Sequence record: NC_106597.1
DNA: 64,000 nucleotides
Reading direction: 5' to 3' (one strand)
From: Escherichia phage BB1
The translations under genes were made by a program, and so were the position numbers. The notes under the pieces are model-generated. The model was not told the origin of the DNA. It saw only the letters and a list, made by a program, of their open reading frames with translations, and made no database searches. Position 1 is the first letter of the stretch; each line of letters opens with the position of its first letter. Shown here piece by piece: positions 30,315 through 60,337 of the stretch.

Positions 30315-30581
30315 ATGAAAAAGTTTGTGATTGCACTAGTTGCCGCAGTTATGTTATCTGGTTGTGCACCTGCTCCCAAACCATTTTGTACAGGATTTGT
30401 AAAATCTTTTGGTGGTGTGGGAGAAGAACATTACGGTCTCAAGGTTCAAAAAGTTCGTATTAAGGGAGATCGCTTTCCAGTAGTACAGCTCCGTACTAAG
30501 TTTGGATGGTGGGATCTCAGTCAGTTTGACCTTAAATATGGTGATTGTAAATTTAAACTAGAACAATCTAATTACCTGTAA
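30315..30581 (+). CDS. llp: lytic-conversion lipoprotein (Llp-like receptor-blocking lipoprotein)
   Basis: 88 aa; signal peptide with lipobox LSGC; divergent from the receptor-binding protein gene. Confidence 0.7.
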   Translation: MKKFVIALVAAVMLSGCAPAPKPFCTGFVKSFGGVGEEHYGLKVQKVRIKGDRFPVVQLRTKFGWWDLSQFDLKYGDCKFKLEQSNYL

Positions 30582-31043: not shown

Positions 31044-31150
31044 TGGAATGGGTAATTATTGCACTACTGGGGATTGTGATTATTGGGCAGTGTATTTTAG
31101 ATAATCACTTAGCTAGAATTGAAACCTTACTATCGGAGAAACGTAAATGA
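31043..31150 (+). CDS. small membrane protein (35 aa)
   Basis: MEWVIIALLGIVIIGQ...; below the ORF-track threshold; ATGA overlap with next gene. Confidence 0.3.
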   Translation: MEWVIIALLGIVIIGQCILDNHLARIETLLSEKRK

Positions 31151-31341
31151 TGGAAGTGGCAGTTACACTAATAGTAATATTAGTCTGGGTAATCCTCATT
31201 GCCTCTCGTATCGTGTATATTCGCCTAAAAACTCTAGAAGCCCAGGTAAAACAACAACAAGTTGCGCTAGAAAAGCTAGTACTACTGCAACGGTGTGATA
31301 GCACCCGTATTCTGCAAATTGAGAAGGAATTAGATGTTTAG
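31147..31341 (+). CDS. small membrane protein (64 aa)
   Basis: N-terminal TM helix followed by a coiled-coil-like segment. Confidence 0.4.
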   Translation: MMEVAVTLIVILVWVILIASRIVYIRLKTLEAQVKQQQVALEKLVLLQRCDSTRILQIEKELDV

Positions 31342-31579
31342 TATTGTAATTGCTTTTATTATCGGGATACTCGCTGGAGTTTTCGGGACGACTGCGGCAA
31401 TCAATAAGCATCGGGAATATATTGCGGGAGTGACGCGGGAGATTGCGGAAAGGGAGCGGAAGTTTGACGAGAAACGTGCGGAGTTTGAGCGGAAGTGGTC
31501 GGATGGATCTCGGGCGTCGCGGAAGAGATTCCGTGAGTTCAGACCAGAACACAGGTTTGATGACCCTTCTATGCGCTAA
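31334..31579 (+). CDS. small membrane protein (81 aa)
   Basis: N-terminal TM helix then Arg/Glu-rich tail; start overlaps upstream gene. Confidence 0.4.
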   Translation: MFSIVIAFIIGILAGVFGTTAAINKHREYIAGVTREIAERERKFDEKRAEFERKWSDGSRASRKRFREFRPEHRFDDPSMR

Positions 31580-31744
31580 TTTGGAAATCTCGAAATTTCA
31601 TAAGATTACACATGGAGGTGTGCCCAGTGGGTCGGGGGAGAATACTTAGTCTGCTAACCGCCACCCCCCGTTACTATTAGCAGGGTAATTGTTTCATCCT
31701 GCAACCATTTTAATCGCAGGATGAAATTATTTCAACTTTAATTA

Positions 31745-32479
31745 TTACGCAACTTTTAATTTCTCAATATATTGTTGCGGGCTGCAACTATATTCTGCGC
31801 GTTCTTCCTCGGTCATACCTTCCCAGCATAGTTTTAAACGGTCAGCTAGGAATTGATAATCATTATCATCGTCGAGCGATTCATCAATAAAGGTTTCACC
31901 TATTAATGTTACACCTATTGATAGAATATCATTAACGGCTTGCGCGTCCAGCGTTTTAAATCCGTATGATGCTGCCGCCGATAGCACACCTTTATGATCA
32001 TCAATCATTGTAAAATCAGCGTTCGGATATAACTGTTTAAATAATTCAAAATAATAAGATTTATATACTGCGTCTTTGCTGTGGTATATTTCGCTAACTT
32101 TATCAGCTTTAAAATATTTATGCAGTGTGTCGCGGGAAAATACGCGGATATTGCTATTTCCTCGACCTCGCAAGCCTTGTTTGCGCAAGAAATAATAGTC
32201 CGACTTACTCATCAATCGAGCGGTGCAAATAATGTTTAAAGTATTTGCATCATTCATGCACTGGCGCATATATTCAACCAATGGCAATAAAGTATCTTGC
32301 ATTATTAAATGATGTTTGCAGGCTTCATTTTTATATTTATTTAAATCTAAATTGCCCTCATTATCAAAGCAAGGCGCTACACGATGGAAAGAATTAACGA
32401 TAGTGCCGTCTAAATCCCAAATCATGACGCGGGAAATATGCGGGAAATTACGGAAAGAATTAATAATAGATTTATTCAT
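31745..32479 (-). CDS. dmp: HAD-family 5'-deoxyribonucleotidase (Dmp-like)
   Basis: 244 aa; HAD motif I WDLDGTIV near N-terminus; length matches T5 dmp. Confidence 0.6.
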   Translation of the reverse strand: MNKSIINSFRNFPHISRVMIWDLDGTIVNSFHRVAPCFDNEGNLDLNKYKNEACKHHLIMQDTLLPLVEYMRQCMNDANTLNIICTARLMSKSDYYFLRKQGLRGRGNSNIRVFSRDTLHKYFKADKVSEIYHSKDAVYKSYYFELFKQLYPNADFTMIDDHKGVLSAAASYGFKTLDAQAVNDILSIGVTLIGETFIDESLDDDNDYQFLADRLKLCWEGMTEEERAEYSCSPQQYIEKLKVA

Positions 32480-32558
32480 TTGTTACGTTCTCCATTAAAG
32501 GGATTTAGTTATTTCAGCATTACCCGCTATTTATAAGCGGGTAATAATAAATTAACTA

Positions 32559-32954
32559 TTAAAGACCATAAGCCAACGCATCGGCAATAAAACTAACATC
32601 CTCACCTGATACGCTGGAACGAATACCAGCACAAGTATATACTTTTGCACTGATCAATTGATCATCAAGGCAAGCGGGGCAAGGCGCGACAACTGCAAAG
32701 GCAAGGCCGGATTTTACGGCGTCGATGATAATCGTTTCTTGCTTCACCGTATCAACATAAACACCTTTTGCTTTAATATGACTGGTTAGTTTGCCCTGCG
32801 TATATGCGAATGTTGTAACCTGTAAAGCGTCATTGAAATCTAATAGATCATCAATAACATGCCCCGCCTCGACGTGGTAACGTTCGCCGTTAGAATAAAC
32901 CAGAACAATTGAGGATTGAGCGCGGTCAAATGGGATGCGATTAGATTTAGCCAT
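32559..32954 (-). CDS. hypothetical protein
   Basis: 131-aa ORF in the pre-early block. Confidence 0.4.
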   Translation of the reverse strand: MAKSNRIPFDRAQSSIVLVYSNGERYHVEAGHVIDDLLDFNDALQVTTFAYTQGKLTSHIKAKGVYVDTVKQETIIIDAVKSGLAFAVVAPCPACLDDQLISAKVYTCAGIRSSVSGEDVSFIADALAYGL

Positions 32955-32990
32955 GTTTATAACTCCAGTTATTTTAATAAGGAATTTAAT

Positions 32991-33281
32991 TTATTTGATA
33001 ATAATCTGCATTTGGTACGGCGTTAATTCACCGTTTACGGGTAAATTATTATCACTCAACCATTCATAAAAAGCGTCATCATCATCAAAAGGAACAACAT
33101 CATTATCACGATAATCGACCGTAATAATACCATCAGTATTAGTTTTAGCGGCTAGGATAGGCCCGAAGCTGTAAACTTTATCGGATTCCATTTCATCCGG
33201 TGAAATGAATGCTTTTTCGTCCAATGTTTTGGGTAGTGTAACTTTCATTTTTTGACTCCTGTAATAGCGGCTATATTTCAA
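32991..33281 (-). CDS. hypothetical protein
   Basis: 96-aa acidic ORF. Confidence 0.4.
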   Translation of the reverse strand: MKYSRYYRSQKMKVTLPKTLDEKAFISPDEMESDKVYSFGPILAAKTNTDGIITVDYRDNDVVPFDDDDAFYEWLSDNNLPVNGELTPYQMQIIIK

Positions 33282-33302
33282 GCCGCTAGGGGAATAATTT
33301 AA

Positions 33303-34967
33303 TTATGCGAAGAATTTACCATTCTTAAAGTCGATCAAAGTACGCTGACCGTTTGCATAGGTAATTAAATGCGTTTGCGTCCAGCTTGACGCGCCAACGT
33401 TGTAACCCATATCCAGACTACCAGCTACTCCAGCGGTATAAACGCCACCGTAAATGCTAGCGGTATGGGTGTGTCCCGTGTTTAGCTTGCCCAATTTCTT
33501 AAACTGTTTAGGATTGCCACGACTGCCGTTAATGCCGTTGTGACCGTGTACACCGCACTCAATGCCTGCAATCTTGAAAGATTGGTCAGTGGTTAGGAAA
33601 ATGGCGTTAAACTCACAACCTGCAACCTTGCGCAGCGCATAATCTAGCACGTTAAAAGTATCATCATGATCACTGATCGCCGCGTAAATTGCAGCATTCA
33701 GGCGGTGATATAGTTCGGCGTTGGCTGGATCGTCTTTGATGTTAGCATTACGATCATCTAACCAGCGGGATAGCGCCAAATCGTGATTAGATTCAACAAT
33801 GATTGTTTGAGAGAAATCACGTTCCATTGATTCCAGCACGCGCCCCGTATCGATAAGATCATCCAGAACTTTATCACGTCCAGCGGCATACTGTTTTGCT
33901 AGGAATACACCGGATGCACGGTTATGATGATTGCGCGATGTAAAATCATGCACGTCATGAATAAACTGATATTTAGGTTTAAGAATATCAAGCAAGCTAT
34001 TTTCGCCAGCCCATGACGCAACGGCACAATCATCATCTAATTTTTCGGCGTGAATATCGCCATATTGCAAGCCTAAAACATGCCCCGACGTTTCATAGCA
34101 TCCAGCAGGAGTAGCGCAAACATTCAGATCATAAAACACCCCGCTTTCATCCATCGTTTCAAGCTGGCGAACAAAAAATTCCCCGTCGTCGTCGAACTCA
34201 ACAATAAGCGCACCGAAGTTATGCAGCGCCTCGGCCTTTTGTCCTGCTTTCTGCTGAATGTAGTTTTTGAGCGTTGCCGTTCCGGTTGAATACATACGGC
34301 GCACTACTTCACCTTTTAAAGCTGGCACGCTTTCAGCGGTAATTTTAGCGTGACCAATTGCCAGCCCTTCAATATTTAAAGCCGTTGCAGTTTCTGCAAA
34401 TCCTGAAAGCGGATAGTCTGCGGTAGGCAAAACATTAATTTCAGCCATGAAAGCAAAACGGCGGTTATTTAAAAACACGTTTTTGCTGCAAATATATTTA
34501 TCAAATGCGGGATCGTATTTGATACCGTCTGCACCTTCTCCATTCTGGAAGCCGTTTTTATTATAAATATACTTAGAAACAAGCAAATCAGCACCGATAT
34601 ATTCAGCGAATTTTTCCAGACTTGCTAAAAAGTTTTTATGTGGGAAAGTATTATTCTGAATCGACGTAATAATAAAGCGTTTACCCTGTTTTACTTCCCA
34701 TTGCTCAACCGTACTAGAAACAATCCCCGCCGCTTCTGGGCGCTCATCGTTTTTAATGGCTTTTGCTACTTTTGCCGCTTTCGGTTTAGCTGGTTTATTT
34801 GCTTCCAGCCAGTCGCAGATAGCGGTTGAATGCTTCGTTGTATCGTAGACCGCTTTTGATATATCGTCGCAGACTTCCAGTTTAGTAGCGCGCAGACGTT
34901 TACCATAGAAATTAAAGTCAGCGGCCATTTTCAGGATAACGGTTTGTTTTTCTGCGGAAATAATCAT
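33303..34967 (-). CDS. A1: pre-early protein A1-like (calcineurin-type metallophosphoesterase)
   Basis: 554 aa; metallophosphoesterase motifs GDIHAE, GHNG, GHTH; size close to T5 A1. Confidence 0.6.
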   Translation of the reverse strand: MIISAEKQTVILKMAADFNFYGKRLRATKLEVCDDISKAVYDTTKHSTAICDWLEANKPAKPKAAKVAKAIKNDERPEAAGIVSSTVEQWEVKQGKRFIITSIQNNTFPHKNFLASLEKFAEYIGADLLVSKYIYNKNGFQNGEGADGIKYDPAFDKYICSKNVFLNNRRFAFMAEINVLPTADYPLSGFAETATALNIEGLAIGHAKITAESVPALKGEVVRRMYSTGTATLKNYIQQKAGQKAEALHNFGALIVEFDDDGEFFVRQLETMDESGVFYDLNVCATPAGCYETSGHVLGLQYGDIHAEKLDDDCAVASWAGENSLLDILKPKYQFIHDVHDFTSRNHHNRASGVFLAKQYAAGRDKVLDDLIDTGRVLESMERDFSQTIIVESNHDLALSRWLDDRNANIKDDPANAELYHRLNAAIYAAISDHDDTFNVLDYALRKVAGCEFNAIFLTTDQSFKIAGIECGVHGHNGINGSRGNPKQFKKLGKLNTGHTHTASIYGGVYTAGVAGSLDMGYNVGASSWTQTHLITYANGQRTLIDFKNGKFFA

Positions 34968-35057
34968 AGTAATAAAACTCCATTAAAGGGATTAGATTAA
35001 TAACGGCAATATTGCCAAATATAACGCCTCAAATAATAGGCGTTATAATTTGCAACA

Positions 35058-35255
35058 TTAATTTAAAGGCACTAGGCTAGAACTAACACCACAAGCAACG
35101 GCAGCGATAAAACAAAGCAAGCCCAAACGTTTTGCTAACTTAGATTTACGTTTAAAATAATATGAATCTAAATCATTTTGAAAATAAGCAAATAATAATG
35201 AGGCCGCCATAATAAACAAGCCTAGAATTAATGATTCAGTAGGAAAGAAAATCAT
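35058..35255 (-). CDS. small membrane protein
   Basis: 65 aa, two hydrophobic helices. Confidence 0.3.
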   Translation of the reverse strand: MIFFPTESLILGLFIMAASLLFAYFQNDLDSYYFKRKSKLAKRLGLLCFIAAVACGVSSSLVPLN

Positions 35256-35346
35256 TTTTTAAAACTCCTGATTTAAGGGAAGAAAATAACTATCGCTAAA
35301 CAGTTATATTATTGCCCCCTCACTAAAAGGGGGCAAGGTATAACTA

Positions 35347-35754
35347 TTATTCGCCTGCGGCTTGTTTTACTTCATCGGCAACGCCTAACAGTTGCGCTAC
35401 TGCGTCCAGCGTTTCAAGTTTTGCACTTTCCAGACTTGCCAGATCGTCGGCGTCTTTGATAATGCCGGAATCAATAGCATGTTTAGCGATAACGCGCACA
35501 TAGTGAGCTTTACGCACAGAGCTACCGCCACCAACTTTACGCGGCTTATCGCTTTTTTGATAGGCTTTTGCACTGGTCAATTTTGAGCGAACGGATACAG
35601 GGGAAGCCGCGCCAACTGCTTTTGCAATCTCTTTTAAACCGTCGCTATTTGCGAAATCTAAACCGTTTTCATTAATTAACTGCTGATACATGGAAACAGC
35701 TTTCTGAGTGTTTTCTTCATTCCATGCGAATTTTGCGGTTTTAACGTTAGTCAT
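35347..35754 (-). CDS. pre-early DNA-binding protein, possibly A2-like
   Basis: 135 aa, basic central region; position downstream of the repeat region and upstream of the A1-like gene. Confidence 0.35.
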   Translation of the reverse strand: MTNVKTAKFAWNEENTQKAVSMYQQLINENGLDFANSDGLKEIAKAVGAASPVSVRSKLTSAKAYQKSDKPRKVGGGSSVRKAHYVRVIAKHAIDSGIIKDADDLASLESAKLETLDAVAQLLGVADEVKQAAGE

Positions 35755-35852
35755 GATATAAACTCCTATTAGTTTAATTTAAGGGATTAGATTAACTTAA
35801 TGTTAATCGTTATATCCCCCTGAAATAAGGGGGATATAAAGTTAACACTAAA

Positions 35853-36104
35853 TTACAGAACAGCTTCCCATTTTTCGTTACGTTGAACAACCTTTACAAC
35901 GTCGCCGGATTTAACGCGAACGTTAAAAACAGGTTTGCCGTTGTTACTACGTTCATTTTCAACATATACCGCGTCGATTGTATCAAACGGCATAAGCGCC
36001 GCGCCTTTAATACGTTCGGCCTTTCCGGTTAATTCATCCGTTTTAGTAACGAAAGGAATAAAAACGGATTGACCAATTTTTGGCGCGGTAATAACGTTTT
36101 GCAT
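35853..36104 (-). CDS. hypothetical protein
   Basis: 83-aa ORF. Confidence 0.4.
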   Translation of the reverse strand: MQNVITAPKIGQSVFIPFVTKTDELTGKAERIKGAALMPFDTIDAVYVENERSNNGKPVFNVRVKSGDVVKVVQRNEKWEAVL

Positions 36105-36332
36105 AATATAAACTCCGAGTTATTTGGTGGATTGTTCCGCATTACCTGCTAGAAAGTAGCAGGTAATAAGTAACAATCCGCTCGCCAGTATAATCGATTT
36201 AAAGAACTCCACGTAGGCCGCTATATCCCAGTTAGGGGGCGGGATGCATTATGGTAAGCACCGACCGTCAAATTTTATCAAGTTATCGCTCTTATCGAAC
36301 TGGGTACATCTTAAAACCTATCGGCTAGGTTG

Positions 36333-36536
36333 TCAAGCGGTTTTTTGCAGTTTTTTATGATTTTCTTTCAAGTCAATCATAATATTTCGCCAGATCATTT
36401 CTAAACCTTGCTGGCGACCTTTCTTGTACTGCGTGAATCTATATTTTACTGATCTTTGTGCTACTGTCAACAAGTTTTTTGTTTTGCTATCTAGTGCCTT
36501 AATAGGCTTGCCAGTGATCAAAAGCGTTTGTTTCAT
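36333..36536 (-). CDS. hypothetical basic protein
   Basis: 67 aa, Lys-rich; first ORF downstream of the DnaA-box region. Confidence 0.25.
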   Translation of the reverse strand: MKQTLLITGKPIKALDSKTKNLLTVAQRSVKYRFTQYKKGRQQGLEMIWRNIMIDLKENHKKLQKTA

Positions 36537-36945
36537 ATCGTCGATTCCTTATAATGAATAAGTTTACCGCCGATAGGCTTTAAGATGTACCCAATTTTTA
36601 AAGAGCGTGGCGGTAAACTTCCCGCCGTGTAGTTCGTCATTGCCGCCCTACGAAATAAATAATAGGGGATTCCCGAAAATGGCGCAACCTTATTTTTGTA
36701 AAGAAACGTAAAGACACGATCCACCGGACGGCGTGCGGCGACGGCCTAAAATTAAAAGAAACGGGCGCGCGAATACCACAAAACATAGCAAATAGGCAAG
36801 TAATTTTTTCATTTATATTTACTTTGCCCTACTTGACAAAACCTAAAAAGCTCGTGACAGCGATAAACGGCTTATCCCTTTATGATGAGATGGCTAAAAA
36901 CTTCATCGCGTTCTAGGGCGTTTTAGGCGCATTCTAGCCTTGTTG

Positions 36946-37020
36946 ATAACTTATCCCCAGAAGCAAAAATGAAATTTTCCTAGTTATCCACTTGACTTTT
37001 ATTTTCCAGTGGATAACTAC
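36946..37020. repeat. DnaA-box-like sites with a 12-bp inverted repeat
   Basis: TTATCCCCA (36951-36959); TAGTTATCCACT (36981-36992) and its reverse complement AGTGGATAACTA (37008-37019) around a TTGACTTTTATTTTCC spacer. Confidence 0.6.
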
Positions 37021-37139
37021 TTATTTTATAAAATAAATTAATTGACTTTTATCTGTTAGTATGCATCGGAAAGATAGCAGACTAATAATTGCTAGGATGA
37101 TAATCATGCTGGTGGATTGTAACGGCTTAAATTATTAGC

Positions 37140-37262
37140 AGACTATTAATCACGGAAAATCTCATTAGCCAACTAACTATTTCATGATATATAATATACT
37201 TATAAATTAATGAGAAATAATAATTATAATAAATAATAACTACAGTAAATAATAACTATAAG
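37140..37262. repeat. AT-rich tract with reiterated AATAATAACTA-type units
   Basis: About 120 bp of low-complexity A+T sequence between the DnaA-box groups. Confidence 0.5.
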
Positions 37263-37311
37263 AAACTATCGGCCTAAGTGAGAACCACTATCATTTAAGT
37301 TATTCACAACG

Positions 37312-37408
37312 TTATCCACAGCACAAAATAATTTGACACGATAGGCGGCGATATAAGGACTTTTGCACAGACTTATCCACAGGTTATTCCACTGTATAAA
37401 TATACAAG
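37312..37408. promoter_or_regulatory. two consensus DnaA boxes plus palindrome (left arm of a large imperfect inverted repeat)
   Basis: TTATCCACA at 37312-37320 and 37373-37381, followed by CTGTATAAATATACA. Confidence 0.6.
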
Positions 37409-37674
37409 GTAAAAAGGTAGTGTTAACAACTGCAATCAATTTTGAGCGGCCTAAATCGCATTCTAACGAGCTAAACGCTGCGGAGTAATATTAAAGTAAA
37501 GCCTTAATGCGGCGGCCTGGTGGCTTCACCGTGTTTTGCTCTTTATTACACCGCTGCGCGGTTAGCATAAAATTAGACGCTAGGCAAGGAAAATAAAAAG
37601 GTAAAATAATATTTGCCTATGCTAGAAAATTACCTTTATCATTCACTCACCGATTAACGAGGGAGGCCGAACAA

Positions 37675-38670
37675 ATGAGGCTGTATAAACCAGATAACGC
37701 AACCGTCTTAAAAGGTGCATTGCGCAACCTGCTGGAGGGTAGCAAGTCAACCAGCATTAAACATTTTATTAACAAGGCTGAAACTATTCATCAAAACTTT
37801 TTTGATGATTATGACGGTTATGATATAGATAGTTTTCTACCACTATATAAGCAAGGGGCAACGCTTGTTTTATATAACCGTGATTGCCATATCTTTACAG
37901 GCAGGGGAGCGGGGCCGGATGCCGATTTTATTATTGCGCAGGGCAATAATATTGTTGCGTATCATAGCAATTCAGGCCGTCAATCATTTAATATAAATGG
38001 TTTTGAGCTTATTGGACTTGATCTGATAAATGGACTTTCTAGTATTGAGGGATTTTTAAATGTTATCTGGAAGTATTTACCCGCTGGATGGCATAAGCCG
38101 GATAATGACGGATCTCAATATACCGCTATAATGGCTTTTGATGGCGACGGTAATTTTTTGTTACCACGGGAGCTATACCCGTATATTTATGATGGGGATA
38201 TTGAAAGCGCTGGTTTTTCTTTCTGGAAAGATGAAGATCAGATTATTGACAGTATAGAAAACCATGCTGTAAATTCTAACACTCAAACTACTGAAAACAA
38301 AGGAAAAAATACCATGACTAAGATTGCTAACATCGTTGCCGCTAATAAATCCGCTGTTGTAAATGCTGCAAAACTGGAGGCGGGTAAAATTGCATTAACT
38401 CAAATCACGAAAGTAGCGGCTAAAAAAGCGCCGTTTATGATTAAAGGTTATATTGATACGCCGATTGGTCGTGTAGTGATCGCTAACCTGCTAAGTGTAG
38501 CGGTTGACCAGTACGCACCGAGTAACCAAAAGGCGAAAGCGGTAGCAGGTGCAGCTATGGAGGCGGCAATGTTGGAAATGGTGCAAAGTTTTAACATCGC
38601 TGAAATGATTGATGAAATGGTAAAAGGTATTGATATTTCTACTTTTACCACTAGCACCGAAAGCGAGTAA
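37675..38670 (+). CDS. hypothetical protein (331 aa)
   Basis: SD GAGGGAGG upstream; first gene of the plus-strand island. Confidence 0.5.
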   Translation: MRLYKPDNATVLKGALRNLLEGSKSTSIKHFINKAETIHQNFFDDYDGYDIDSFLPLYKQGATLVLYNRDCHIFTGRGAGPDADFIIAQGNNIVAYHSNSGRQSFNINGFELIGLDLINGLSSIEGFLNVIWKYLPAGWHKPDNDGSQYTAIMAFDGDGNFLLPRELYPYIYDGDIESAGFSFWKDEDQIIDSIENHAVNSNTQTTENKGKNTMTKIANIVAANKSAVVNAAKLEAGKIALTQITKVAAKKAPFMIKGYIDTPIGRVVIANLLSVAVDQYAPSNQKAKAVAGAAMEAAMLEMVQSFNIAEMIDEMVKGIDISTFTTSTESE

Positions 38671-38735
38671 TAATAACTAGCGGGGATTATTTCCCCGCTT
38701 TACTATTCCCTTGTTAACTAATAGGAGGCTAATAA

Positions 38736-39230
38736 ATGGCTGAGGAAAAATACGGCTTCTCGCTAGGGGAAGTGAGCACGGCTAAACACGATATGATCAT
38801 TTTAGTCGATTGTCATACAGGTTATTGCGGAGAAGGTTGGACGGAGGAACATTTTGTTCCTGCTGGTACGGATCTGGACGCTTTCGCTCATGAAATGGCT
38901 GTTGATAATGCTTCTCGTTTTGGTAGCGATGGCTATGAAGACGAAGAAACTGGCGAATGGTATGAAAATGAAAACGTATATGCAAGCCTTTATCATTATC
39001 AATTAAGTAAATCCGGCACATATGTAAACGGCGGCGATCCTATTAATTCCGTCATGAAATTAATTATTAAACATGGTGGCGTCGAGATAATTGATAACAA
39101 AGCGGTAATATATGCAAACCGATTAAAACAGCTTATTTATATTCCTGATAGTACCCGATGGGAGGAATATGCTGTTTTGCATGACGAATTAAAACGATGT
39201 TTCAATATTGAAGCCTTACAAGTAGTCTAA
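38736..39230 (+). CDS. hypothetical acidic protein (164 aa)
   Basis: SD TAGGAGG upstream. Confidence 0.5.
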   Translation: MAEEKYGFSLGEVSTAKHDMIILVDCHTGYCGEGWTEEHFVPAGTDLDAFAHEMAVDNASRFGSDGYEDEETGEWYENENVYASLYHYQLSKSGTYVNGGDPINSVMKLIIKHGGVEIIDNKAVIYANRLKQLIYIPDSTRWEEYAVLHDELKRCFNIEALQVV

Positions 39231-39335
39231 TGTAAAGTTTTGTAAAGGTCGCCTTTTATGGTGGCCTTTTTTGTTATAATGCCTTTACACCAAAACGGTG
39301 GATTGAAAATTTTCCCAAAAATTTGGAGGCTTAAA

Positions 39336-39566
39336 ATGGTTGCTTATTCTTCTGCTAGTCATCTGTTTACCGCGCAAGGCTGGGTATCTAATCGTGCTGT
39401 CATCTATGAAATGGTGCAGGAGTTCGGCATTGCTAAAACCTATAATACCATTCAGGAACTATATAACGCCGATAAAATCGATCAGCAAACGGCTGGCTTT
39501 TTGCTGGATACCCTGAAAGCTGAACATTGCACTAAAAAACAAGCCGCTAAAATTGTTTTAATGTAA
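39336..39566 (+). CDS. hypothetical protein (76 aa)
   Basis: ORF 39258..39566; likely start at 39336 preceded by TGGAGG. Confidence 0.4.
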   Translation: MVAYSSASHLFTAQGWVSNRAVIYEMVQEFGIAKTYNTIQELYNADKIDQQTAGFLLDTLKAEHCTKKQAAKIVLM

Positions 39567-39615
39567 TTAATAACGGGGCGATACTTTCGCCCCGATAACT
39601 AGGAGGCTATCACAA

Positions 39616-39765
39616 ATGGTTATTTTTCGATCTATTTTAGCGGGTATCTTGGGCGCTATTTTATCGTTATTTGCGATAGCTTTCGGCGTTCACGCTGTTA
39701 TTATTGGCGCTGGCATTGCCGTATTTTCTTATCTGTTAGGCTGCATGACTAGTAAAGGAGAATAA
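39616..39765 (+). CDS. small membrane protein (49 aa)
   Basis: Below ORF-track threshold; SD AGGAGG 7 nt upstream; one long hydrophobic helix. Confidence 0.35.
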   Translation: MVIFRSILAGILGAILSLFAIAFGVHAVIIGAGIAVFSYLLGCMTSKGE

Positions 39766-39767
39766 AA

Positions 39768-39980
39768 ATGATTCGTAACGTTTCCCTTGCACGTTCGAAA
39801 GGCTTTAAGCTGGTGGATGTAAACACGTTTGAGCGGGAAGATTGTAAAATCGAATATGTAGCACGTAACAAAAATGCCTTTCGTGTTACCGAGAAAAAAT
39901 TCGACAAGCGCGGCAACGTGATAGCTGAAACAGTTAAACATTTTGCCACCTTTTATGCTGCCTTTCGTGGGGTGTTATAA
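39768..39980 (+). CDS. hypothetical protein (70 aa)
   Basis: Starts 2 nt after the previous stop. Confidence 0.4.
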   Translation: MIRNVSLARSKGFKLVDVNTFEREDCKIEYVARNKNAFRVTEKKFDKRGNVIAETVKHFATFYAAFRGVL

Positions 39981-39981
39981 A

Positions 39982-40326
39982 ATGGTTATTTATGAAGGCA
40001 ATCGCTTTGTTGCTAATTGCCGTCCGGCATTATTAGCAAACTATTTAAATCAGCTTTCCCCAGCCTATAAGGGCGTTATTAATATTTATGAGGGCAAGGC
40101 GCATTATAAAATTAATGCGGTCGTTGCCCGTGAACTAGCGTTTCAATTTTTGACTTTTGCATCTTGTGACGTTCAGGTTATGGGGGAAGCATTAATTGCA
40201 GAAAATGAAGAGGATTTTATTAATATTTTCCGTAAGGTATGCACTGAGCGCTTGATAATGAAAGGCGCGTATATTCAATCAACTGCGGAAAGTATTGAAA
40301 CAGCATTTCGAAAGGTGGCGCAATGA
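39982..40326 (+). CDS. hypothetical protein (114 aa)
   Basis: ORF 39943..40326; likely ATG at 39982 adjacent to the previous stop. Confidence 0.4.
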   Translation: MVIYEGNRFVANCRPALLANYLNQLSPAYKGVINIYEGKAHYKINAVVARELAFQFLTFASCDVQVMGEALIAENEEDFINIFRKVCTERLIMKGAYIQSTAESIETAFRKVAQ

Positions 40327-40392
40327 AATTATATATTTTCGTTGGTAATAGTAAGGCCGCTATTGGCAAAAATATATTTACTAGTGGTTATT

Positions 40393-40587
40393 ATGAGCAA
40401 TAAAATTATTGTTACCAAAACCAGTACAATGGTTGATGTTTTTTACGTTCCCGATACGCCGGAAAACCGACAAGCGGTCGAGCGTGGCGAGTATGATAAA
40501 GTGATTTATGATCACGATGGTTATTATCAACATTTGGTGGATTCCTACGGGGAGGAGGAAAAAATCACGCACCGACTACCAGACTAA
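40393..40587 (+). CDS. hypothetical protein (64 aa)
   Basis: ORF 40342..40587; internal ATG at 40393 more plausible. Confidence 0.35.
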   Translation: MSNKIIVTKTSTMVDVFYVPDTPENRQAVERGEYDKVIYDHDGYYQHLVDSYGEEEKITHRLPD

Positions 40588-40844
40588 TAATCACAGGGCA
40601 CAACTACTAGGAAGTGCCCCCCAATTCTCAAATGAGAATGATTCTCATTTGACCGCGCCCGAGATGGTTAGCCTGCTAATGGTTAGGGTGTTACGTGTCG
40701 CCTTGTGTGATCGTTAGCGAGCTAACCAATTTTTAAGCCTCCTCCAATTTTGCCATTGTTTTAGTATCCCCGCCAAAATTAAACGCGTTAGAATGCGATC
40801 TAGGACGTTTTAACGCTATATTAGAACTATTCACTGCGCAGGAA

Positions 40845-40956
40845 TACTGTATAAATATACAGTAGGATAAGCTGTGGATAAGTCTGTTAATAACGCCTCA
40901 AAATGGCTAGGATTCTGTCAAGTCAAATCGTGCTGTTAATAAGTCTGTGGATAACT
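40845..40956. promoter_or_regulatory. two consensus DnaA boxes (reverse orientation) plus 16-bp palindrome (right arm of the inverted repeat)
   Basis: CTGTATAAATATACAG at 40847-40862; TGTGGATAA at 40873-40881 and 40946-40954. Confidence 0.6.
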
Positions 40957-40974
40957 TAAATAACAGTGTTTCTC

Positions 40975-41160
40975 ACTTCCATTCTTAAATGCAAATTATT
41001 ATCATTTGTATTTCACTATCTAACTAATAATCATTTCACTTTTTAAATGAGAATCGTTTCACTTCCTGAATAATTTTCATTTCACTTTTTAAATGCGAAT
41101 GATTCTCATTATCATTCCGCTTTTTAAATGCGAATTATTATCATTATCATTCGCATTCAG
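40975..41160. repeat. AT-rich tandem repeats
   Basis: Three copies of TTTCACTTTTTAAATG(A/C)GAAT-like units and ATTATCATT reiterations. Confidence 0.6.
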
Positions 41161-41182
41161 GCTAGCAGGGCAATTGCCCTGC
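41161..41182. repeat. perfect palindrome CAGGGCAATTGCCCTG
   Basis: 16-bp palindrome centred on AATT, immediately before the direct-repeat array. Confidence 0.5.
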
Positions 41183-41188
41183 GCTTTT

Positions 41189-41788
41189 GTGCAAATCCGA
41201 CATTGCTCCATGGGTGTTACGTGCGGGCGTGTATGTGCGAATCCGACAATTTTTGGTAGTGTGCAAATCCGACCCGAAAAATTTTTATAGTGTGCAAATC
41301 CGACAATGAATTTTCCTAAAAACTCCAGCAATCACGAACTGCGTTCGAATCCTGTGGGGTATGTGCAAATCCGACATGGTTTTTCTAGGATTAAGATGTG
41401 CGAATCCGACAAGATTTTTGTGACTTCGATTGGAGGGTGTGTGATTGTGTGAGTTTGGGGAGAAGTTGAAAGAGTGAGAGAAATTTGGGGGAACTGCGGG
41501 AGGGGTGCATGTTTGGTGCGGAGCACCTGATTTGCGGGGATTTTGTGGAAGAGTTGAGAAGATTTGGGTTAATTTGAGATAAGTGCAGATAAAGTAAAAT
41601 TTTATTAGCTAAATGGGGCAAAATAGCTTGACAAGTGAAAATTTCTGTGGCTCCAAAAACTCAGGCAATCATGGGCCTTCGGCCCGAAATAATGCTGCCG
41701 TTTTCAGGAGATTATATGTTCCTAAAAACTTAGGCAATTGTGCAAATCCGACCAGTTTTTAAACTCTTGTCAGTGTGCAAATCCGACA
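41189..41788. repeat. array of 8 direct copies of a 14-bp motif GTGC(A/G)AATCCGAC(A/C)
   Basis: Copies at 41189, 41235, 41261, 41292, 41363, 41398, 41740, 41775, all same orientation, irregular spacing; non-coding. Confidence 0.7.
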
Positions 41789-42286
41789 GTAATTTCTAGA
41801 AATGTGTTTTGGAAAAATGTCTTCTAGAAATAACCGCCCTCCCAATAACCGCCCTGTATTAACCGCCTATTGCTGGAGTTTCTAGGAATATGAAAACCGC
41901 CTAAGTTGACTAGAGTTTTCCTAGAAACTTAGGAGTCTAGAAGAAAGTGTTGTGCCATCCTAGCAGATGAGCGGCAACAGGTGTATCATCTTGAACACAA
42001 ATATTGCCTTTAAATATTATAAGGTAAATAAAAGTTAATATACCCCCATTTCATGAGAGTTAGTCCCTCTAGGCGCGTGCGATTTGATACATCCTCCTGA
42101 GTCTCGGGGAGGAAGAACAATTGACGAGAACCTGCGAACAGAACCGTCATCAAGTGTTTTCCTACGAGGAATGATGTAAATCTACGGCCTAGAGGTAAAA
42201 ACAAGTTGATGTTTTTAATCTATGAGATTATTATAACACATTATTCTCACGAATGTCAAGCAAATTTCGTTACTTTTAAATTTTCG

Positions 42287-43015
42287 TCATGAGTTTGGAG
42301 TTGGGTAAATTTTTATGCAACCTTGACTTAATAGATATTTTTCTGCCTCTACAGCTTTAATATTGAATATCTCTTTTGCTCCATCGAATTTATAATGATT
42401 AGCAAATTTATTCTCGAAAAATTTATGTGCTTGGTGTTCTATTTTGTAAGCAAGTTCTTTCGATCCTTTCTTGTACTGGTAGATACCAAATACTTCCATA
42501 TCTTCAAAACCCGGCACACGCAATTTATCATACTCTAGATTCTTAAACCTTTGATGTGGCTCTCTAGAAACCCCAATCTTTGTCTTTAATTTCTTCCTAG
42601 ACTGATCTTTATTAGAGAAGATATAGAGATATGTGGGAAATTGAACATCTTCTTCTACTTCCGGTTTCTCGATAGGTGTATTGAGGTTGCTTTCTCTAGC
42701 ACATTGTAAACAACCGTGCCCATCTAGGTGAGATCTAGCAGTTTGCATAAAGTATCCTTTATGCTTATAGCACCATATCTCTACTAACTGATTGGCTGTC
42801 TTATAATTAACTCTTTCATACCCATACTCTTCTTTCTGGACTTTTAAAGCTTTCCTAATAAAGATAAGGTTTAAGGCCTCTTGTTGGAAGTCAGGGTGAA
42901 GTTGCCTAATCTTCGTTATATTAGTAGAGCCATTTGACTTCAAAAAGTTTTTAAGAGGAAACCTCCTGGCTTCCTCGCGTAGCTTTTTATTAATTTCAGC
43001 ACGTAAATCATCCAT
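42287..43015 (-). CDS. T5orf172 / GIY-YIG-like domain protein, putative
   Basis: 242 aa; YLYIFSNK ... KIGVSRE pattern resembling a GIY-YIG-related core, preceded by a Cys/His cluster (HLDGHGCLQCA). Confidence 0.35.
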   Translation of the reverse strand: MDDLRAEINKKLREEARRFPLKNFLKSNGSTNITKIRQLHPDFQQEALNLIFIRKALKVQKEEYGYERVNYKTANQLVEIWCYKHKGYFMQTARSHLDGHGCLQCARESNLNTPIEKPEVEEDVQFPTYLYIFSNKDQSRKKLKTKIGVSREPHQRFKNLEYDKLRVPGFEDMEVFGIYQYKKGSKELAYKIEHQAHKFFENKFANHYKFDGAKEIFNIKAVEAEKYLLSQGCIKIYPTPNS

Positions 43016-59449: not shown

Positions 59450-59525
59450 TGGTAGTTAGTAGTGGATTTGAACCACTGTAGTCGCTCCGTATGAAGGAGG
59501 TGCATAACCTCTCTGCCAACTAACT
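59450..59525 (-). tRNA. tRNA-Met (anticodon CAT; could be an Ile2 or initiator type)
   Basis: Hand-folded: 7-bp acceptor, T-arm AGTGG-TTCAAAT-CCACT, anticodon loop TTCATAC, encoded CCA. Confidence 0.55.
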
Positions 59526-59678
59526 AGTTAATTCTTTATAGGTTAGATCTAGAAGATCTTTCTTACTGATAAGTCCTTCTCTATATTGGTCAATAAACAT
59601 ATCTATTCTAGAGTTCTCTGAGACTTCTATATCAGAAAGTTCAGCAAATATTTTTGCAAGTTTATCAATATCTTCCAT
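59521..59678 (-). CDS. hypothetical small protein (52 aa)
   Basis: Sub-threshold ORF between two tRNAs. Confidence 0.25.
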
Positions 59679-59692
59679 ACATAACCTTAATT

Positions 59693-59769
59693 TGGTACTC
59701 CGGGAGGGATTTAAACCCCCGATCTCTCGGTTATCAGCCGAGTGCTTTAGATCGCTAAGCTACCGAAGC
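59693..59769 (-). tRNA. tRNA-Ile (anticodon GAT)
   Basis: Hand-folded: acceptor with G-U pairs, anticodon stem CTCGG/CCGAG, loop CTGATAA, T-arm GGGGG-TTTAAAT-CCCTC, encoded CCA. Confidence 0.55.
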
Positions 59770-59770
59770 A

Positions 59771-60270: not shown

Positions 60271-60300
60271 TTGGTTTCCCTCTCATTAATTTATATAAAT

Positions 60301-60329
60301 ATTATAACAATAAATAAGAGAGAAAGCAA
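60301..60329 (-). promoter_or_regulatory. T5-type early sigma70 promoter
   Basis: TTGCTT - 17 bp - TATAAT, leader ...ATAAATTAATGAGAGGG. Confidence 0.65.
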
Positions 60330-60337
60330 ATGAATTT

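What the first reader, a model, noticed from the sequence alone, without database searches (positions are those of the whole stretch)
37675..40590. Plus-strand island of seven unknown genes enclosed by the inverted DnaA-box repeats
The seven small genes (331, 164, 76, 49, 70, 114 and 64 aa) are the only plus-strand genes in 30 kb of otherwise minus-strand transcription. They are tightly packed with good Shine-Dalgarno sites and sit between the two DnaA-box inverted-repeat arms. None has a recognisable catalytic motif. Being cassette-like and positioned in the first DNA to enter the cell fits a host-takeover or anti-defence module, or an exchangeable moron.
Basis: inference. Interest (0 to 1): 0.7.

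Follow-up and report, generated by a model that had tools for sequence, protein, structure and literature searches.

The report
T5-type pre-early host-takeover gene cassette
The seven-gene island is the already described second "pre-early" operon of a T5-like phage: dispensable host-sabotage genes in the first DNA injected, between two conserved repeat arms, so the finding is mostly ordinary although the arms have features not yet reported.

Summary
The window is a T5-like coliphage (protein-identical to Escherichia phage BB1) assembled with one copy of its ~10-kb terminal repeat (~31621-41650). The island 37675-40590 is real. Its genes are orthologues of T5.011, .012, .013, .014, .015 and .017, plus a 164-aa gene that T5 lacks; T5.016 is absent. 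The 131-nt inverted arms carrying eight DnaA boxes are Davison's IRC-spacer-IRD and IRD'-spacer-IRC'. Published T5 work shows that this unit is dispensable, that 011, 013 and 015 are toxic to E. coli, and that T5.015 is a Ung-dependent nickase of abasic sites. "Unknown genes" and "only plus-strand genes in 30 kb" are inaccurate.

I add four points:
- The cassette is inverted relative to A1/A2 in Sugarlandvirus and Mccorquodalevirinae, but in none of 301 close relatives.
- In a Vibrio phage the arms enclose unrelated genes.
- Each arm ends, on the cassette side, in a palindrome that matches the E. coli LexA (SOS) box at up to 19/20 positions. It is conserved family-wide, and I found no paper that discusses it.
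- RefSeq/PHROGs put the nickase label on the 70-aa T5.014, whereas UniProt and the papers' numbering point to the 114-aa T5.015.

The parts
31621..41650 (.). Single collapsed copy of the ~10-kb terminal repeat (first-step-transfer DNA). It carries dmp (31745-32479), A1 (33303-34967) and A2 (35347-35754) on the minus strand.
   Evidence: Collinear BLASTN to T5 position 1 and to MM-1 position 3. The repeat end was extrapolated from the annotated LTR ends (10219 in T5, 10407 in MM-1). The end coordinate is approximate.
37276..37475 (.). Left inverted-repeat arm (Davison's IRC-spacer-IRD, Repeat Region 2). DnaA boxes at 37300-37308, 37312-37320, 37361-37369 and 37373-37381.
   Evidence: the repeat finder I1/I2; DnaA-box scan; arm-to-arm alignment; described in bioRxiv 10.1101/866236.
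37390..37409 (.). SOS-box-like palindrome at the cassette-side end of the left arm: CACTGTATAAATATACAAGG. It matches TACTG(TA)5CAGTA at 15/20 positions, and CAG is degraded to CAA in this phage.
   Evidence: Sequence read. Scans. The equivalent site in T5, MM-1 and KS_S14 keeps CTGT-N8-ACAG.
37613..37642 (+). Sigma-70 promoter of the cassette: TTGCCT, 18-nt spacer, TATCAT, preceded by an A-rich tract.
   Evidence: Consensus scan. Near-identical over the corresponding stretch to the region upstream of T5.011 (two differences upstream of the hexamers, one single-base indel downstream), where NC_005859 annotates a promoter at 6411-6489. A promoter upstream of 011 is reported as experimentally characterised.
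37675..38670 (+). T5.011 orthologue (331 aa, DUF7566). It has a variable N-terminal domain and a highly conserved ~120-aa C-terminal helical module.
   Evidence: 88% identity to T5.011. PF24450, E 7e-109. Alignment A2. T5.011 is toxic and disorganises the nucleoid.
38679..38699 (+). G+C-rich hairpin after 011. It belongs to the g164 module, which T5 lacks.
   Evidence: Terminator scan; alignment with T5 and KS_S14.
38736..39230 (+). g164: acidic 164-aa protein (pI 4.6, net charge -17) with no T5 orthologue. Function unknown.
   Evidence: phrog_6741, unknown function. Homologues in 343 phage records. Syntenic homologues in DU_PP_V and My1. AF2 pLDDT 84, with no informative fold match.
39244..39280 (+). 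Intrinsic terminator (stem 39244-39269 followed by a T run). It is immediately followed by an invariant extended -10-like element, TGTTATAAT (39272-39280), 55 nt upstream of 012.
   Evidence: Conserved in T5, KS_S14 and phiR2-01, with substitutions in the loop and stem of the hairpin. Promoter activity is inferred only.
39336..39566 (+). T5.012 orthologue (76 aa). Function unknown; not toxic in the published screens.
   Evidence: 83% identity. The SD GGAGG supports this start rather than the 102-aa ORF start..
39616..39765 (+). T5.013 orthologue (49 aa), with two hydrophobic segments; a small membrane protein.
   Evidence: 67% identity with a 10-aa deletion. Kyte-Doolittle maximum 2.54. T5.013 expression lysed a fraction of cells in one study.
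39768..39980 (+). T5.014 orthologue (70 aa, pI 10). Function unknown. It is the most constrained gene of the set.
   Evidence: 100% amino-acid identity to T5, with 22 synonymous codon changes. It carries the RefSeq/PHROG 'Ung nickase' label, which is probably misplaced.
39982..40326 (+). T5.015 orthologue (114 aa): an endonuclease that depends on Ung in vivo and nicks abasic sites.
   Evidence: 94% identity. UniRef name 'DNA-(apurinic or apyrimidinic site) endonuclease'. Function shown for T5.015 in PMC8201957. The numbering follows NC_005859.
40393..40587 (+). T5.017 orthologue (64 aa, acidic). Function unknown.
   Evidence: 92% identity. Homologues in DU_PP_V, My1 and KEY.
40779..40978 (.). 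Right inverted-repeat arm (IRD'-spacer-IRC', the start of the injection-stop region). Minus-strand DnaA boxes at 40873-40881 and 40946-40954; variant TTATTAACA boxes at 40885-40893 and 40934-40942.
   Evidence: bioRxiv 10.1101/866236.
40845..40864 (.). SOS-box-like palindrome TACTGTATAAATATACAGTA. It matches the E. coli LexA-box consensus at 19/20 positions and sits at the cassette-side end of the right arm.
   Evidence: None of 300 Markov-simulated 64-kb sequences exceeded 17/20. Conserved in all 12 arms aligned.
40979..42000 (.). Remainder of the non-coding injection-stop region: direct-repeat families (seven copies of a 22-nt unit, and others) and palindromes.
   Evidence: the repeat finder D1-D4, I3; T5 annotation 'injection stop signal'.

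Best explanation
The island is the rightward pre-early transcription unit of a T5-like phage, orthologous to T5.011-T5.017, in the terminal-repeat DNA that enters the cell during first-step transfer.

Proposed mechanism:
- Host sigma-70 RNA polymerase starts at the promoter 37613-37642. It may also start at a second extended -10 element after the g164 terminator. Transcription occurs during the pause of a few minutes before the rest of the genome enters.
- The products are accessory host-sabotage proteins, none needed for plaque formation.
- The 011 protein disturbs the nucleoid. It has a conserved C-terminal module joined to a rapidly evolving N-terminal domain.
- The 49-aa 013 protein damages the membrane.
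- The 114-aa 015 protein binds host Ung and nicks the abasic sites Ung creates, preferentially damaging uracil-containing host DNA.
- g164, 012, 014 and 017 are conserved accessory factors of unknown target.
- The two DnaA-box arms are cis elements of the injection-stop region. They delimit a slot whose content can be deleted, replaced or flipped.

Shown here: orthology, anatomy, selection on the genes, conservation of the arms, and inversion in other genera.
Taken from T5 papers: toxicity, the 015 mechanism, dispensability.
Inferred: that the BB1 proteins behave like their T5 orthologues, the second promoter, and any role for the arms.
For: Identity and orthology:
- The region matches 489 T5-like records.
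- Six genes are 67-100% identical to T5.011-.015 and .017.
- All seven proteins match Escherichia phage BB1 proteins exactly.
- The island lies at about 6.05-8.97 kb of a ~10-kb terminal repeat.

Expression signals:
- The promoter region is near-identical to T5's annotated promoter region, including both hexamers and the spacer.
- Terminators and hairpins are conserved.

Genes under selection: synonymous changes far outnumber nonsynonymous ones in 014, 015, 017 and g164.

Literature:
- Two inversely oriented pre-early units (PMC10644984).
- 011 and 015 toxic; 015 binds Ung and cleaves abasic sites (PMC8201957).
- 011, 013 and 015 toxic, with distinct cell phenotypes; a mutant lacking hegG-017 is viable but makes smaller plaques (bioRxiv 10.64898/2026.04.02.716235).
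- Pre-early transcripts and ten pre-early proteins were detected in the relative Bas33 (PMC13250531).

Arms:
- Described by Davison as conserved repeat regions 2 and 3 with eight DnaA boxes.
- Found here flanking the cassette in Tequintavirus, Epseptimavirus, KEY, Sugarlandvirus, Hongcheonvirus, Myunavirus and a Vibrio phage.
Against: - No experiment exists for this phage; every function is transferred from T5 orthologues.
- Four of the seven proteins (g164, 012, 014, 017) have no known activity or phenotype.
- Toxicity on over-expression does not prove a role in takeover.
- The deletion mutant's defect cannot be assigned to these genes, because it was made in a mutant that already lacked several left-hand pre-early genes, and a continuous hegG-017 deletion would also remove hegG and, by position, the left arm.
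- Mahata et al. did not find 013 toxic.
- Databases disagree on which protein is the nickase.
- Structure prediction of 011 was poor (pLDDT 61), so its mechanism is open.
Confidence: 0.85

Rival explanations
1. Anti-defence module: one or more of the unknown proteins (especially the acidic g164 or 017, or the basic 014) neutralises restriction or other host immunity as the DNA enters, as T7 Ocr does.
For: - T5-like phages resist type I/II/III restriction when the sites lie outside the repeat, and the responsible pre-early gene is unknown (PMC10644984; PMC8594841).
- g164 is strongly acidic (pI 4.6, net -17) and 017 has pI 4.8.
- The position in first-entering DNA is what such a function would need.
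Against: - T5, reported as largely restriction-resistant, lacks g164.
- Restriction-sensitive Epseptimavirus phages keep 011-015.
- There are no Pfam or NCBIfam hits.
- Davison's candidate for restriction insensitivity is T5.007, in the other operon.
Confidence: 0.2
2. Recently acquired, exchangeable moron cassette: foreign genes with their own signals, inserted between the arms.
For: - Gene-sized indels relative to T5: g164 with its hairpin is present here, and T5.016 and hegG are absent.
- DT571/2 keeps only 013-015.
- Vibrio phage phi 3 has six unrelated genes between equivalent elements.
- Davison reports that this region is the most divergent part of the repeat.
Against: - G+C content (0.36-0.41) matches the rest of the genome.
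- 011, g164, 015 and 017 occur in the same order in Markadamsvirinae and Mccorquodalevirinae, so the core is ancestral.
- g164 is in 343 records against 506 for 011, which fits loss in T5 rather than gain here.
Confidence: 0.12
3. Programmed or ongoing invertible segment: the arms are recombination sites that flip the cassette within phage populations, as in the Mu G and P1 C segments.
For: - Inverted repeats bound the segment.
- The cassette is in the opposite orientation in Spivey, DU_PP_V and My1, while both flanks stay collinear.
Against: - A synthetic inverted-junction query found no record covering 80% or more among 301 matching genomes.
- The arms are only 73% identical, so they are not being homogenised by frequent exchange.
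- No recombinase domain was found in the seven proteins, and none is annotated in the T5 repeat.
Confidence: 0.03
4. The DNA matters more than the genes: the cassette is mainly spacer or loop DNA between two protein-binding arms that together form the injection-stop complex, and the genes are passengers.
For: - The arms are better conserved than the genes between them.
- Davison proposes that both arms belong to the stop signal, and cites a second transfer band of about 5.8 kb.
- The mutant that also lacks hegG-017 was the only mutant reported with smaller plaques.
Against: - There is strong purifying selection on the proteins.
- Published protein-level phenotypes exist.
- The distance between arms varies from about 3.0 to 4.6 kb, and orientation is free.
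- The T5 deletion from hegG to 017 would, by position, also remove the left arm, yet the phage is viable (inference).
Confidence: 0.1

Closest known systems
Bacteriophage T5 rightward pre-early operon T5.011-T5.017, between Repeat Regions 2 and 3 of the terminal repeat (Wang 2005 and Davison 2015, cited from my own knowledge and via other papers' reference lists, not read here; Davison 2020 preprint; Mahata 2021; Annor et al. 2026 preprint)
   Same: Same position in the repeat, near-identical promoter region, same arms with eight DnaA boxes, and six orthologous genes at 67-100% identity in the same order and orientation.
   Different: This phage has the 164-aa gene between 011 and 012. It lacks T5.016 and the hegG homing endonuclease. 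Its 013 is 10 aa shorter, and the left SOS-box-like site is degraded.
T7 class I early genes (0.3 Ocr, 0.4, 0.7), in the first DNA to enter
   Same: Small, dispensable, host-directed and often toxic proteins, encoded on the leading end of the genome and transcribed by host polymerase before the rest of the DNA enters. This rests on established knowledge; Mahata et al. used T7 gene 0.4 as a toxicity control.
   Different: There is no sequence or fold similarity. T5 entry pauses at a cis signal and needs A1/A2, rather than being driven by transcription.
Invertible segments of Mu (G/Gin) and P1 (C/Cin)
   Same: A gene block of a few kb bounded by inverted repeats and found in both orientations among related phages.
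   Different: No invertase is present. The arms are long and diverged. No polymorphism occurs among 301 close relatives. The genes are not tail fibres, and orientation does not switch between alternative reading frames.
E. coli oriC-type DnaA-box clusters and LexA operators (SOS boxes)
   Same: Consensus TTATCCACA boxes in closely spaced pairs, and a 19/20 match to TACTG(TA)5CAGTA.
   Different: The literature places T5 replication origins near the centre of the genome. No SOS-regulated promoter could be assigned to the palindromes. Some copies carry CATG in place of CTG or CAG, so the binding protein may not be LexA.

Membership tests
T5 rightward pre-early operon (T5.011-T5.017) | Lies inside the terminal repeat, between Repeat Region 2 (IRC-spacer-IRD) and Repeat Region 3 (IRD'-spacer-IRC' / injection-stop signal) | tested here: met
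   Repeat mapped to ~31621-41650. The arms at 37276-37475 and 40779-40978 flank the genes.
T5 rightward pre-early operon (T5.011-T5.017) | Genes orthologous to T5.011-T5.017, in the same order and divergent from dmp-A1-A2 | tested here: met
   Six of the seven T5 genes are present at 67-100% identity. T5.016 is absent and there is one extra gene.
T5 rightward pre-early operon (T5.011-T5.017) | Sigma-70 promoter immediately upstream of 011 | tested here: met
   TTGCCT-18-TATCAT. The hexamers and spacer are identical to T5's, and the surrounding stretch differs at only two bases and one indel. Promoter activity was not tested.
T5 rightward pre-early operon (T5.011-T5.017) | Expressed before second-step transfer and shut off by A1 | not testable with these tools
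   Needs time-resolved transcriptomics. Shown only for relatives.
T5.015 Ung-dependent AP-site nickase | Sequence orthology to T5.015 (locus tag of NC_005859, 114 aa) | tested here: met
   94% identity over 114 aa. The UniRef name agrees. The papers use NC_005859 numbering.
T5.015 Ung-dependent AP-site nickase | Binds Ung, cleaves abasic sites, and is toxic only when ung is present | not testable with these tools
   This is biochemistry and genetics. There is no solved structure and no sequence relative in the PDB.
DUF7566 (PF24450) | Score above the Pfam gathering threshold | tested here: met
   364.8 bits against a cut-off of 27; E 7e-109.
Site-specific invertible segment (Gin/Cin/Hin type) | Recombinase (invertase) encoded in or next to the segment | tested here: not met
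   No recombinase domain in the seven proteins. None is annotated in the T5 repeat.
Site-specific invertible segment (Gin/Cin/Hin type) | Both orientations present among close relatives or within a population | tested here: not met
   None of 301 records carries the inverted junction. Only distant genera differ. Within-population frequency is not testable here.
Moron | Own promoter and terminator, atypical composition, sporadic distribution | tested here: not met
   The g164 module has flanking hairpins, but no promoter of its own was found. G+C is typical. Syntenic homologues occur in other subfamilies.
DNA-mimic anti-restriction proteins (Ocr/ArdA type) | Acidic protein with a fold that mimics DNA | tested here: not met
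LexA operator (SOS box) | CTGT-N8-ACAG palindrome close to TACTG(TA)5CAGTA | tested here: met
   The right arm matches at 19/20. The left arm matches at 15/20 and has lost CAG.
LexA operator (SOS box) | Bound by LexA and overlapping a regulated promoter | tested here: inconclusive
   Only weak promoter-like matches overlap the sites; the best is the minus-strand TTAACA-16-TATATT at 37426-37399. Binding is not testable here.

The most novel reading that the evidence does not exclude
The two arms may be composite landing pads for host DNA-binding proteins. Each carries two pairs of DnaA boxes plus a near-consensus LexA operator at its cassette-side edge. Equivalent brackets surround the pre-early accessory slot in every Demerecviridae lineage examined, whatever genes the slot holds and whichever way it points.

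If LexA (with DnaA) really occupies these sites on the incoming DNA, the injection-stop region would be coupled to the host's SOS state. A1-driven destruction of host DNA might then remove LexA and help release or time the second step of transfer.

The arms have also served as breakpoints for at least one whole-cassette inversion between subfamilies.
Probability: 0.2. Interest if true: 0.7.

Novelty: already known. Interest (0 to 1): 0.33.

Why it matters
The island itself adds nothing new. It is a close orthologue of a locus that has been sequenced, compared across relatives, deleted and partly characterised in T5.

What could matter is what surrounds it. How T5 stops and restarts DNA injection has been an open question since the 1960s, and the only current molecular proposal rests on the DnaA boxes in these arms.

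Three observations here give concrete, cheap experiments on that question:
- A near-perfect SOS-box-like palindrome sits next to those boxes in both arms.
- The palindrome is conserved from coliphages to Vibrio phages.
- The enclosed genes can be flipped or wholly replaced.

The experiments are LexA and DnaA binding assays, infection of lexA and dnaA mutant hosts, and point mutations in the palindrome.

The misplaced nickase label in RefSeq and PHROGs also matters in practice, because it is being propagated to new phage annotations.

Tried and rejected
- Profile searches of all seven proteins gave only DUF7566 for 011. PHROGs gave 'unknown function' except for the disputed nickase label. Libraries searched: Pfam, PHROGs, NCBIfam.
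- PDB sequence searches with 011, g164, 014 and 015 found nothing below E 0.5.
- The afdb50 library was unavailable.
- hhalign found no relation between the N-terminal domain of 011 and the HIRAN-containing relatives.
- Rfam found nothing credible in 36000-42300.
- I tried to settle the T5.014/T5.015 identity from the Mahata supplement, but the file is not held.
- I considered that the two SOS-box-like palindromes always have their AA/TT centres in direct orientation, and that this records inversion history. I dropped the idea because MM-1 breaks the pattern.
- I considered transcription-driven DNA entry through the rightward operon. I rejected it because the operon points away from the stop signal in three genera.
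- Vibrio phage pVp-1 was fetched at the wrong end of its genome and was not pursued; phi 3 was used instead.

Full report
**What the window is.** The region 36800-41900 matches 489 phage records, nearly all T5-like phages of Escherichia, Salmonella and Klebsiella, at up to 94% identity. All seven island proteins match exactly proteins BB1_0102 to BB1_0108 of Escherichia phage BB1, a 110,099-bp record.

BLASTN against T5 and phage MM-1 shows that window position ~31621 corresponds to base 1 of the left terminal repeat. The repeat ends near 41650. The window is therefore a permuted assembly with one collapsed copy of the ~10-kb terminal repeat:
- late structural genes, minus strand, 3.6-30.2 kb;
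- the terminal repeat;
- early genes and tRNAs, minus strand.

Inside the repeat, dmp (31745-32479), A1 (33303-34967), A2 (35347-35754), T5.007 and hdi read leftward. The island reads rightward.

**Checking the observation.** The seven ORFs exist with exactly the stated lengths. Start sites and ribosome-binding sites are as follows:
- Five genes have strong Shine-Dalgarno sequences.
- The 114-aa gene overlaps the preceding stop region (TAA-A-ATG).
- The 64-aa gene has a weak site.
- The 76-aa start, not the longer 102-aa ORF, is the one with a GGAGG. The longer ORF would begin inside a terminator.

Codon comparisons show that the genes are under purifying selection. Changed codons, synonymous versus nonsynonymous:
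- 014 against T5: 22 and 0;
- 015 against T5: 24 and 7;
- 017 against T5: 19 and 5;
- g164 against KS_S14: 17 and 7.

The inverted repeat is real: 37276-37406 against 40848-40978 (131 nt, 73%), extended by a 29-nt pair. It is the strongest inverted repeat in the whole window (E 8e-15). Six of the nine consensus DnaA boxes in 64 kb fall in the arms. With two TTATTAACA variants they form four pairs, each separated by 3 bp.

- The island is not the only plus-strand coding in 30 kb. A lipoprotein gene (30315-30581; signal peptide and lipobox) and two small genes (31147-31341, 31334-31579) lie on the plus strand between the receptor-binding protein gene and the repeat. Their counterparts are annotated in KS_S14.
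- The genes are not all unknown.

**What it is.** Pairwise comparison gives the following identities to T5:

| Window gene | T5 orthologue | Identity |
|---|---|---|
| 331 aa | T5.011 | 88% |
| 76 aa | T5.012 | 83% |
| 49 aa | T5.013 | 67%, with a 10-aa deletion |
| 70 aa | T5.014 | 100% |
| 114 aa | T5.015 | 94% |
| 64 aa | T5.017 | 92% |

T5.016 is absent, and the 164-aa gene has no T5 counterpart.

The T5 record annotates the same layout: a promoter at 6411-6489, T5.011 to T5.017 on the plus strand, then the injection stop signal. Over the corresponding stretch the window is near-identical to T5 (TTGCCT, 18-nt spacer, TATCAT, with an A-rich tract upstream), with both hexamers and the spacer unchanged.

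After 011 there is a hairpin (38679-38699). After g164 there is a good intrinsic terminator (39244-39269). It is followed at once by an invariant TGTTATAAT (39272-39280). That element is conserved in T5, KS_S14 and phiR2-01, while the hairpin's loop and stem carry substitutions. I read it as a possible second, extended -10 promoter for 012-017; this is inference only.

Differences from T5 are clean, gene-sized indels:
- the hairpin plus g164 (553 bp) is present here;
- T5.016 (about 270 bp) is missing;
- the hegG homing endonuclease is missing.

**What is already published.**
- Davison's preprint (bioRxiv 10.1101/866236) describes three untranslated repeat regions in the T5 repeat. It describes the 131-bp IRC-spacer-IRD and IRD'-spacer-IRC' inverted pair and their eight DnaA boxes in pairs 3 bp apart. 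It notes that the coding region between them is highly divergent among relatives, and it proposes that DnaA binding at these sites stops injection.
- The BF23 paper states that pre-early genes form two inversely oriented transcription units (PMC10644984).
- Mahata et al. cloned T5.011-T5.017. They found 011 and 015 toxic, and showed that T5.015 binds Ung and cleaves the abasic sites it makes (PMC8201957).
- Annor et al. (bioRxiv 10.64898/2026.04.02.716235) found 011, 013 and 015 toxic. The phenotypes were nucleoid disorganisation, partial lysis, and elongation with guillotined nucleoids, respectively. They deleted hegG through 017 and obtained a viable phage with smaller plaques. They report that 016 is rare and that 011 is present in most Demerecviridae.
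- In the relative Bas33, pre-early transcripts and ten pre-early proteins are detected (PMC13250531).

**The individual proteins.**

*011.* This protein is DUF7566. Alignment of T5-like and Klebsiella-phage homologues shows a fast-evolving N-terminal ~200 residues and an almost invariant C-terminal ~120 residues. That C-terminal module alone finds 685 clusters (at 50% identity) in 1.8 billion proteins. In the 150 best matches listed it lies at or near the C-terminus of proteins of 84-544 aa. In two of ten long members scanned, the N-terminus is a HIRAN domain, a 3'-DNA-end binder, above Pfam's threshold; a third scores below it. The N-terminus of this phage's 011 is unrelated to those. This fits a DNA-directed role but does not prove one. 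The AF2 model was poor and its fold hits are meaningless.

*g164.* This protein is acidic (pI 4.6) and models well (pLDDT 84). It has no informative fold or sequence relatives. Homologues occur in 343 phage records, against 506 for 011. They include syntenic copies in Pectobacterium phages DU_PP_V (E 4e-16) and My1. The gene is therefore ancestral and was lost in T5, not gained here.

*013.* It is a two-segment membrane peptide.

*012, 014 and 017.* These have no hits in any library.

**An annotation conflict.** RefSeq NC_005859 and PHROG 4227 place 'endonuclease nicking abasic sites generated by Ung' on the 70-aa T5.014. UniRef names the 114-aa T5.015 family 'DNA-(apurinic or apyrimidinic site) endonuclease'.

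The DT571/2 record notes that T5.014 equals ORF015 of another T5 record, and that T5.015 equals ORF016. That offers an off-by-one explanation. Mahata's gene list and the 2026 preprint both follow NC_005859 locus tags; for example, 013 is the protein with two transmembrane segments. I conclude that the 114-aa protein is the nickase and that the label on the 70-aa protein is probably wrong. I could not verify this from primary data.

**Synteny and inversion.** I mapped markers by tblastn in eleven relatives.

| Orientation of cassette relative to A1/A2 | Phages |
|---|---|
| Divergent, as here | T5, MM-1, KS_S14, DT571/2 (Tequintavirus); phiR2-01 (Epseptimavirus; in Ob_P, whose fetched locus lacks A1/A2, only against the early-gene marker); Erwinia phage KEY; Proteus phage PM135 |
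| Same strand as A1/A2 and the early genes | Klebsiella phage Spivey (Sugarlandvirus); Pectobacterium phages DU_PP_V and My1 (Mccorquodalevirinae) |

In the second group the internal gene order is preserved: 011-like, then g164-like, 015-like, 017-like. The markers on both sides stay collinear with the window. This is a whole-cassette inversion.

Inverted arms flank the cassette in both orientation classes:
- Spivey: 5511-5574 and 8985-9048;
- DU_PP_V: 6851-6911 and 11526-11586;
- My1: 7801-7957 and 11721-11877;
- KEY: 7117-7171 and 11293-11347;
- phiR2-01: 5937-6072 and 9027-9162.

PM135 has no such arms.

To look for the inverted form among close relatives, I built a chimeric query. It joined the outside-left flank and left arm to the reverse complement of the right interior. 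None of 301 matching records covered 80% or more of it. The best, at 64%, is the native right junction read backwards.

The arms are only 73% identical to each other, so they are not being homogenised by frequent exchange. Inversion is thus an old, rare event and not a switch.

The word 'inversion' does not occur in Davison's preprint, and I found no paper describing this event. The 2015 review is not in the library.

**The arms in more detail.** Aligning twelve arms from six phages shows one invariant core: TTATCCACA-gac-TTATCCACA-gg-TTATCC-TACTGTATAwwTATACAGTA. The last 20 bases form a palindrome at the cassette-side end of each arm.

In the window the right copy (40845-40864, TACTGTATAAATATACAGTA) matches the E. 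coli SOS-box consensus TACTG(TA)5CAGTA at 19 of 20 positions. The consensus is from my own knowledge of the LexA literature. The left copy (37390-37409) matches at 15 of 20 and has lost one CAG. In 300 simulated 64-kb sequences no match exceeded 17 of 20.

Sites scoring 16-19 of 20 bracket the cassette in all eleven relatives whose locus includes both sides. This includes PM135, which lacks the DnaA arms.

Vibrio cholerae phage phi 3 (A1 only 34% identical) shows the same bracket. Its six plus-strand pre-early genes have no detectable similarity to the seven here. They are enclosed by the same palindrome core, by adjacent TTATCCACA boxes on the right side and by a 34-nt inverted repeat.

Some copies have CATG in place of CTG or CAG, so the protein that reads the site may be LexA or a phage protein such as A2. 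I could not assign a convincing promoter to the sites. LexA and SOS are not mentioned in the four T5 papers that discuss the stop signal. None of the seven papers containing both 'phage T5' and 'LexA' appears, from title and abstract, to concern these sites; I opened only one of them.

From memory, and unverified, T5 plates on recA hosts. If so, LexA cleavage cannot be essential for infection.

**Verdict.** The finding is a correct recognition of a known locus. The best-supported explanation is a dispensable, promoter-driven pre-early operon of host-sabotage proteins, sitting in a slot bounded by conserved cis elements of the injection-stop region.

Anti-defence, moron, programmed-inversion and pure-spacer readings are each weaker, for the reasons given under the rival explanations.

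The parts worth a specialist's attention lie at the edges of the finding:
- the evolutionary inversion and replacement of the cassette between conserved brackets;
- the SOS-box-like palindromes next to the DnaA boxes;
- the misplaced nickase annotation.

Noticed in passing
window 40845-40864 and 37390-37409; L001 6211-6230 and 9409-9428; L005 5545-5564 and 8995-9014; L007 7596-7615; L014 4294-4313 and 7227-7246: A 20-bp palindrome matching the E. coli LexA-box consensus at up to 19/20 positions sits at the cassette-side end of each DnaA-box arm. It brackets the pre-early cassette in every Demerecviridae genome examined, including Proteus and Vibrio phages. It is not mentioned in the T5 injection-stop papers I could read.
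   Followed up: partly
window 39768-39980 (70 aa) versus 39982-40326 (114 aa): Annotation conflict. RefSeq NC_005859 and PHROG 4227 label the 70-aa T5.014 family as the Ung-dependent abasic-site nickase. UniRef and the papers' numbering point to the 114-aa T5.015. The cause is probably confusion between ORF015 and T5.015. The label is being propagated to new phage records.
   Followed up: partly
L005 5539-8340; L006 8242-10982; L012 8019-10487: The whole pre-early cassette is inverted relative to A1/A2 and the early genes in Sugarlandvirus (Spivey), Hongcheonvirus (DU_PP_V) and Myunavirus (My1). Gene order is preserved and inverted-repeat arms are still on both sides.
   Followed up: yes
L014 4746-6996: Vibrio phage phi 3 has six plus-strand pre-early genes with no detectable similarity to the seven here. 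They are enclosed by the same palindrome and inverted-repeat elements, with DnaA boxes on the right side only. The slot is conserved while its content is replaced.
   Followed up: partly
window 38287-38667 (C-terminal 127 aa of the 331-aa protein): The near-invariant C-terminal module of T5.011/DUF7566 finds 685 clusters (50% identity) in a 1.8-billion-protein library. In the 150 best matches listed it lies at or near the C-terminus of proteins of 84-544 aa. In two of ten long members scanned, the N-terminus is a HIRAN (3'-DNA-end-binding) domain above Pfam's threshold.
   Followed up: partly
window 39768-39980: The 70-aa basic protein (T5.014) is 100% identical to T5 despite 22 synonymous codon changes. 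Only one base (39981) separates its stop codon from the start codon of the nickase gene. This is unusually strong constraint for a gene with no phenotype in two toxicity screens.
   Followed up: partly
window 30315-30581, 31147-31341, 31334-31579: Three small plus-strand genes lie between the receptor-binding protein gene (28457-30229, minus strand) and the start of the terminal repeat. The first encodes a lipoprotein (signal peptide with an LSGC lipobox). By position it is probably the Llp-type receptor-blocking lipoprotein.
   Followed up: partly
window 39244-39280: An intrinsic terminator is followed at once by an invariant TGTTATAAT (an extended -10-like element). The element is conserved in T5, KS_S14 and phiR2-01, with substitutions in the hairpin's loop and stem. 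It may be a terminator-promoter junction that splits the island into two transcription units.
   Followed up: partly
L005 6404-6898: Spivey has a 164-aa gene in the position of g164 with no detectable sequence similarity to it. Other Klebsiella phages have a g164 homologue of about 40% identity. This may be a non-homologous replacement of the same length.
   Followed up: no
window 38575-38605 and 39408-39438: A short shared motif (EMVQxFxIA) and a 31-nt direct repeat at 71% identity link the C-terminus of the 011 protein with the 012 protein. It may be chance or a small duplicated element.
   Followed up: no
window 36287-36325 and 36569-36607: The second-best inverted repeat in the window (39 nt, 85%) flanks the hdi (T5.008) gene, whose T5 counterpart overlaps the strong pre-early promoters.
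   Followed up: no
window 59450-63554: A cluster of 12 tRNA genes on the minus strand in the early region, typical of T5-like phages.
   Followed up: no
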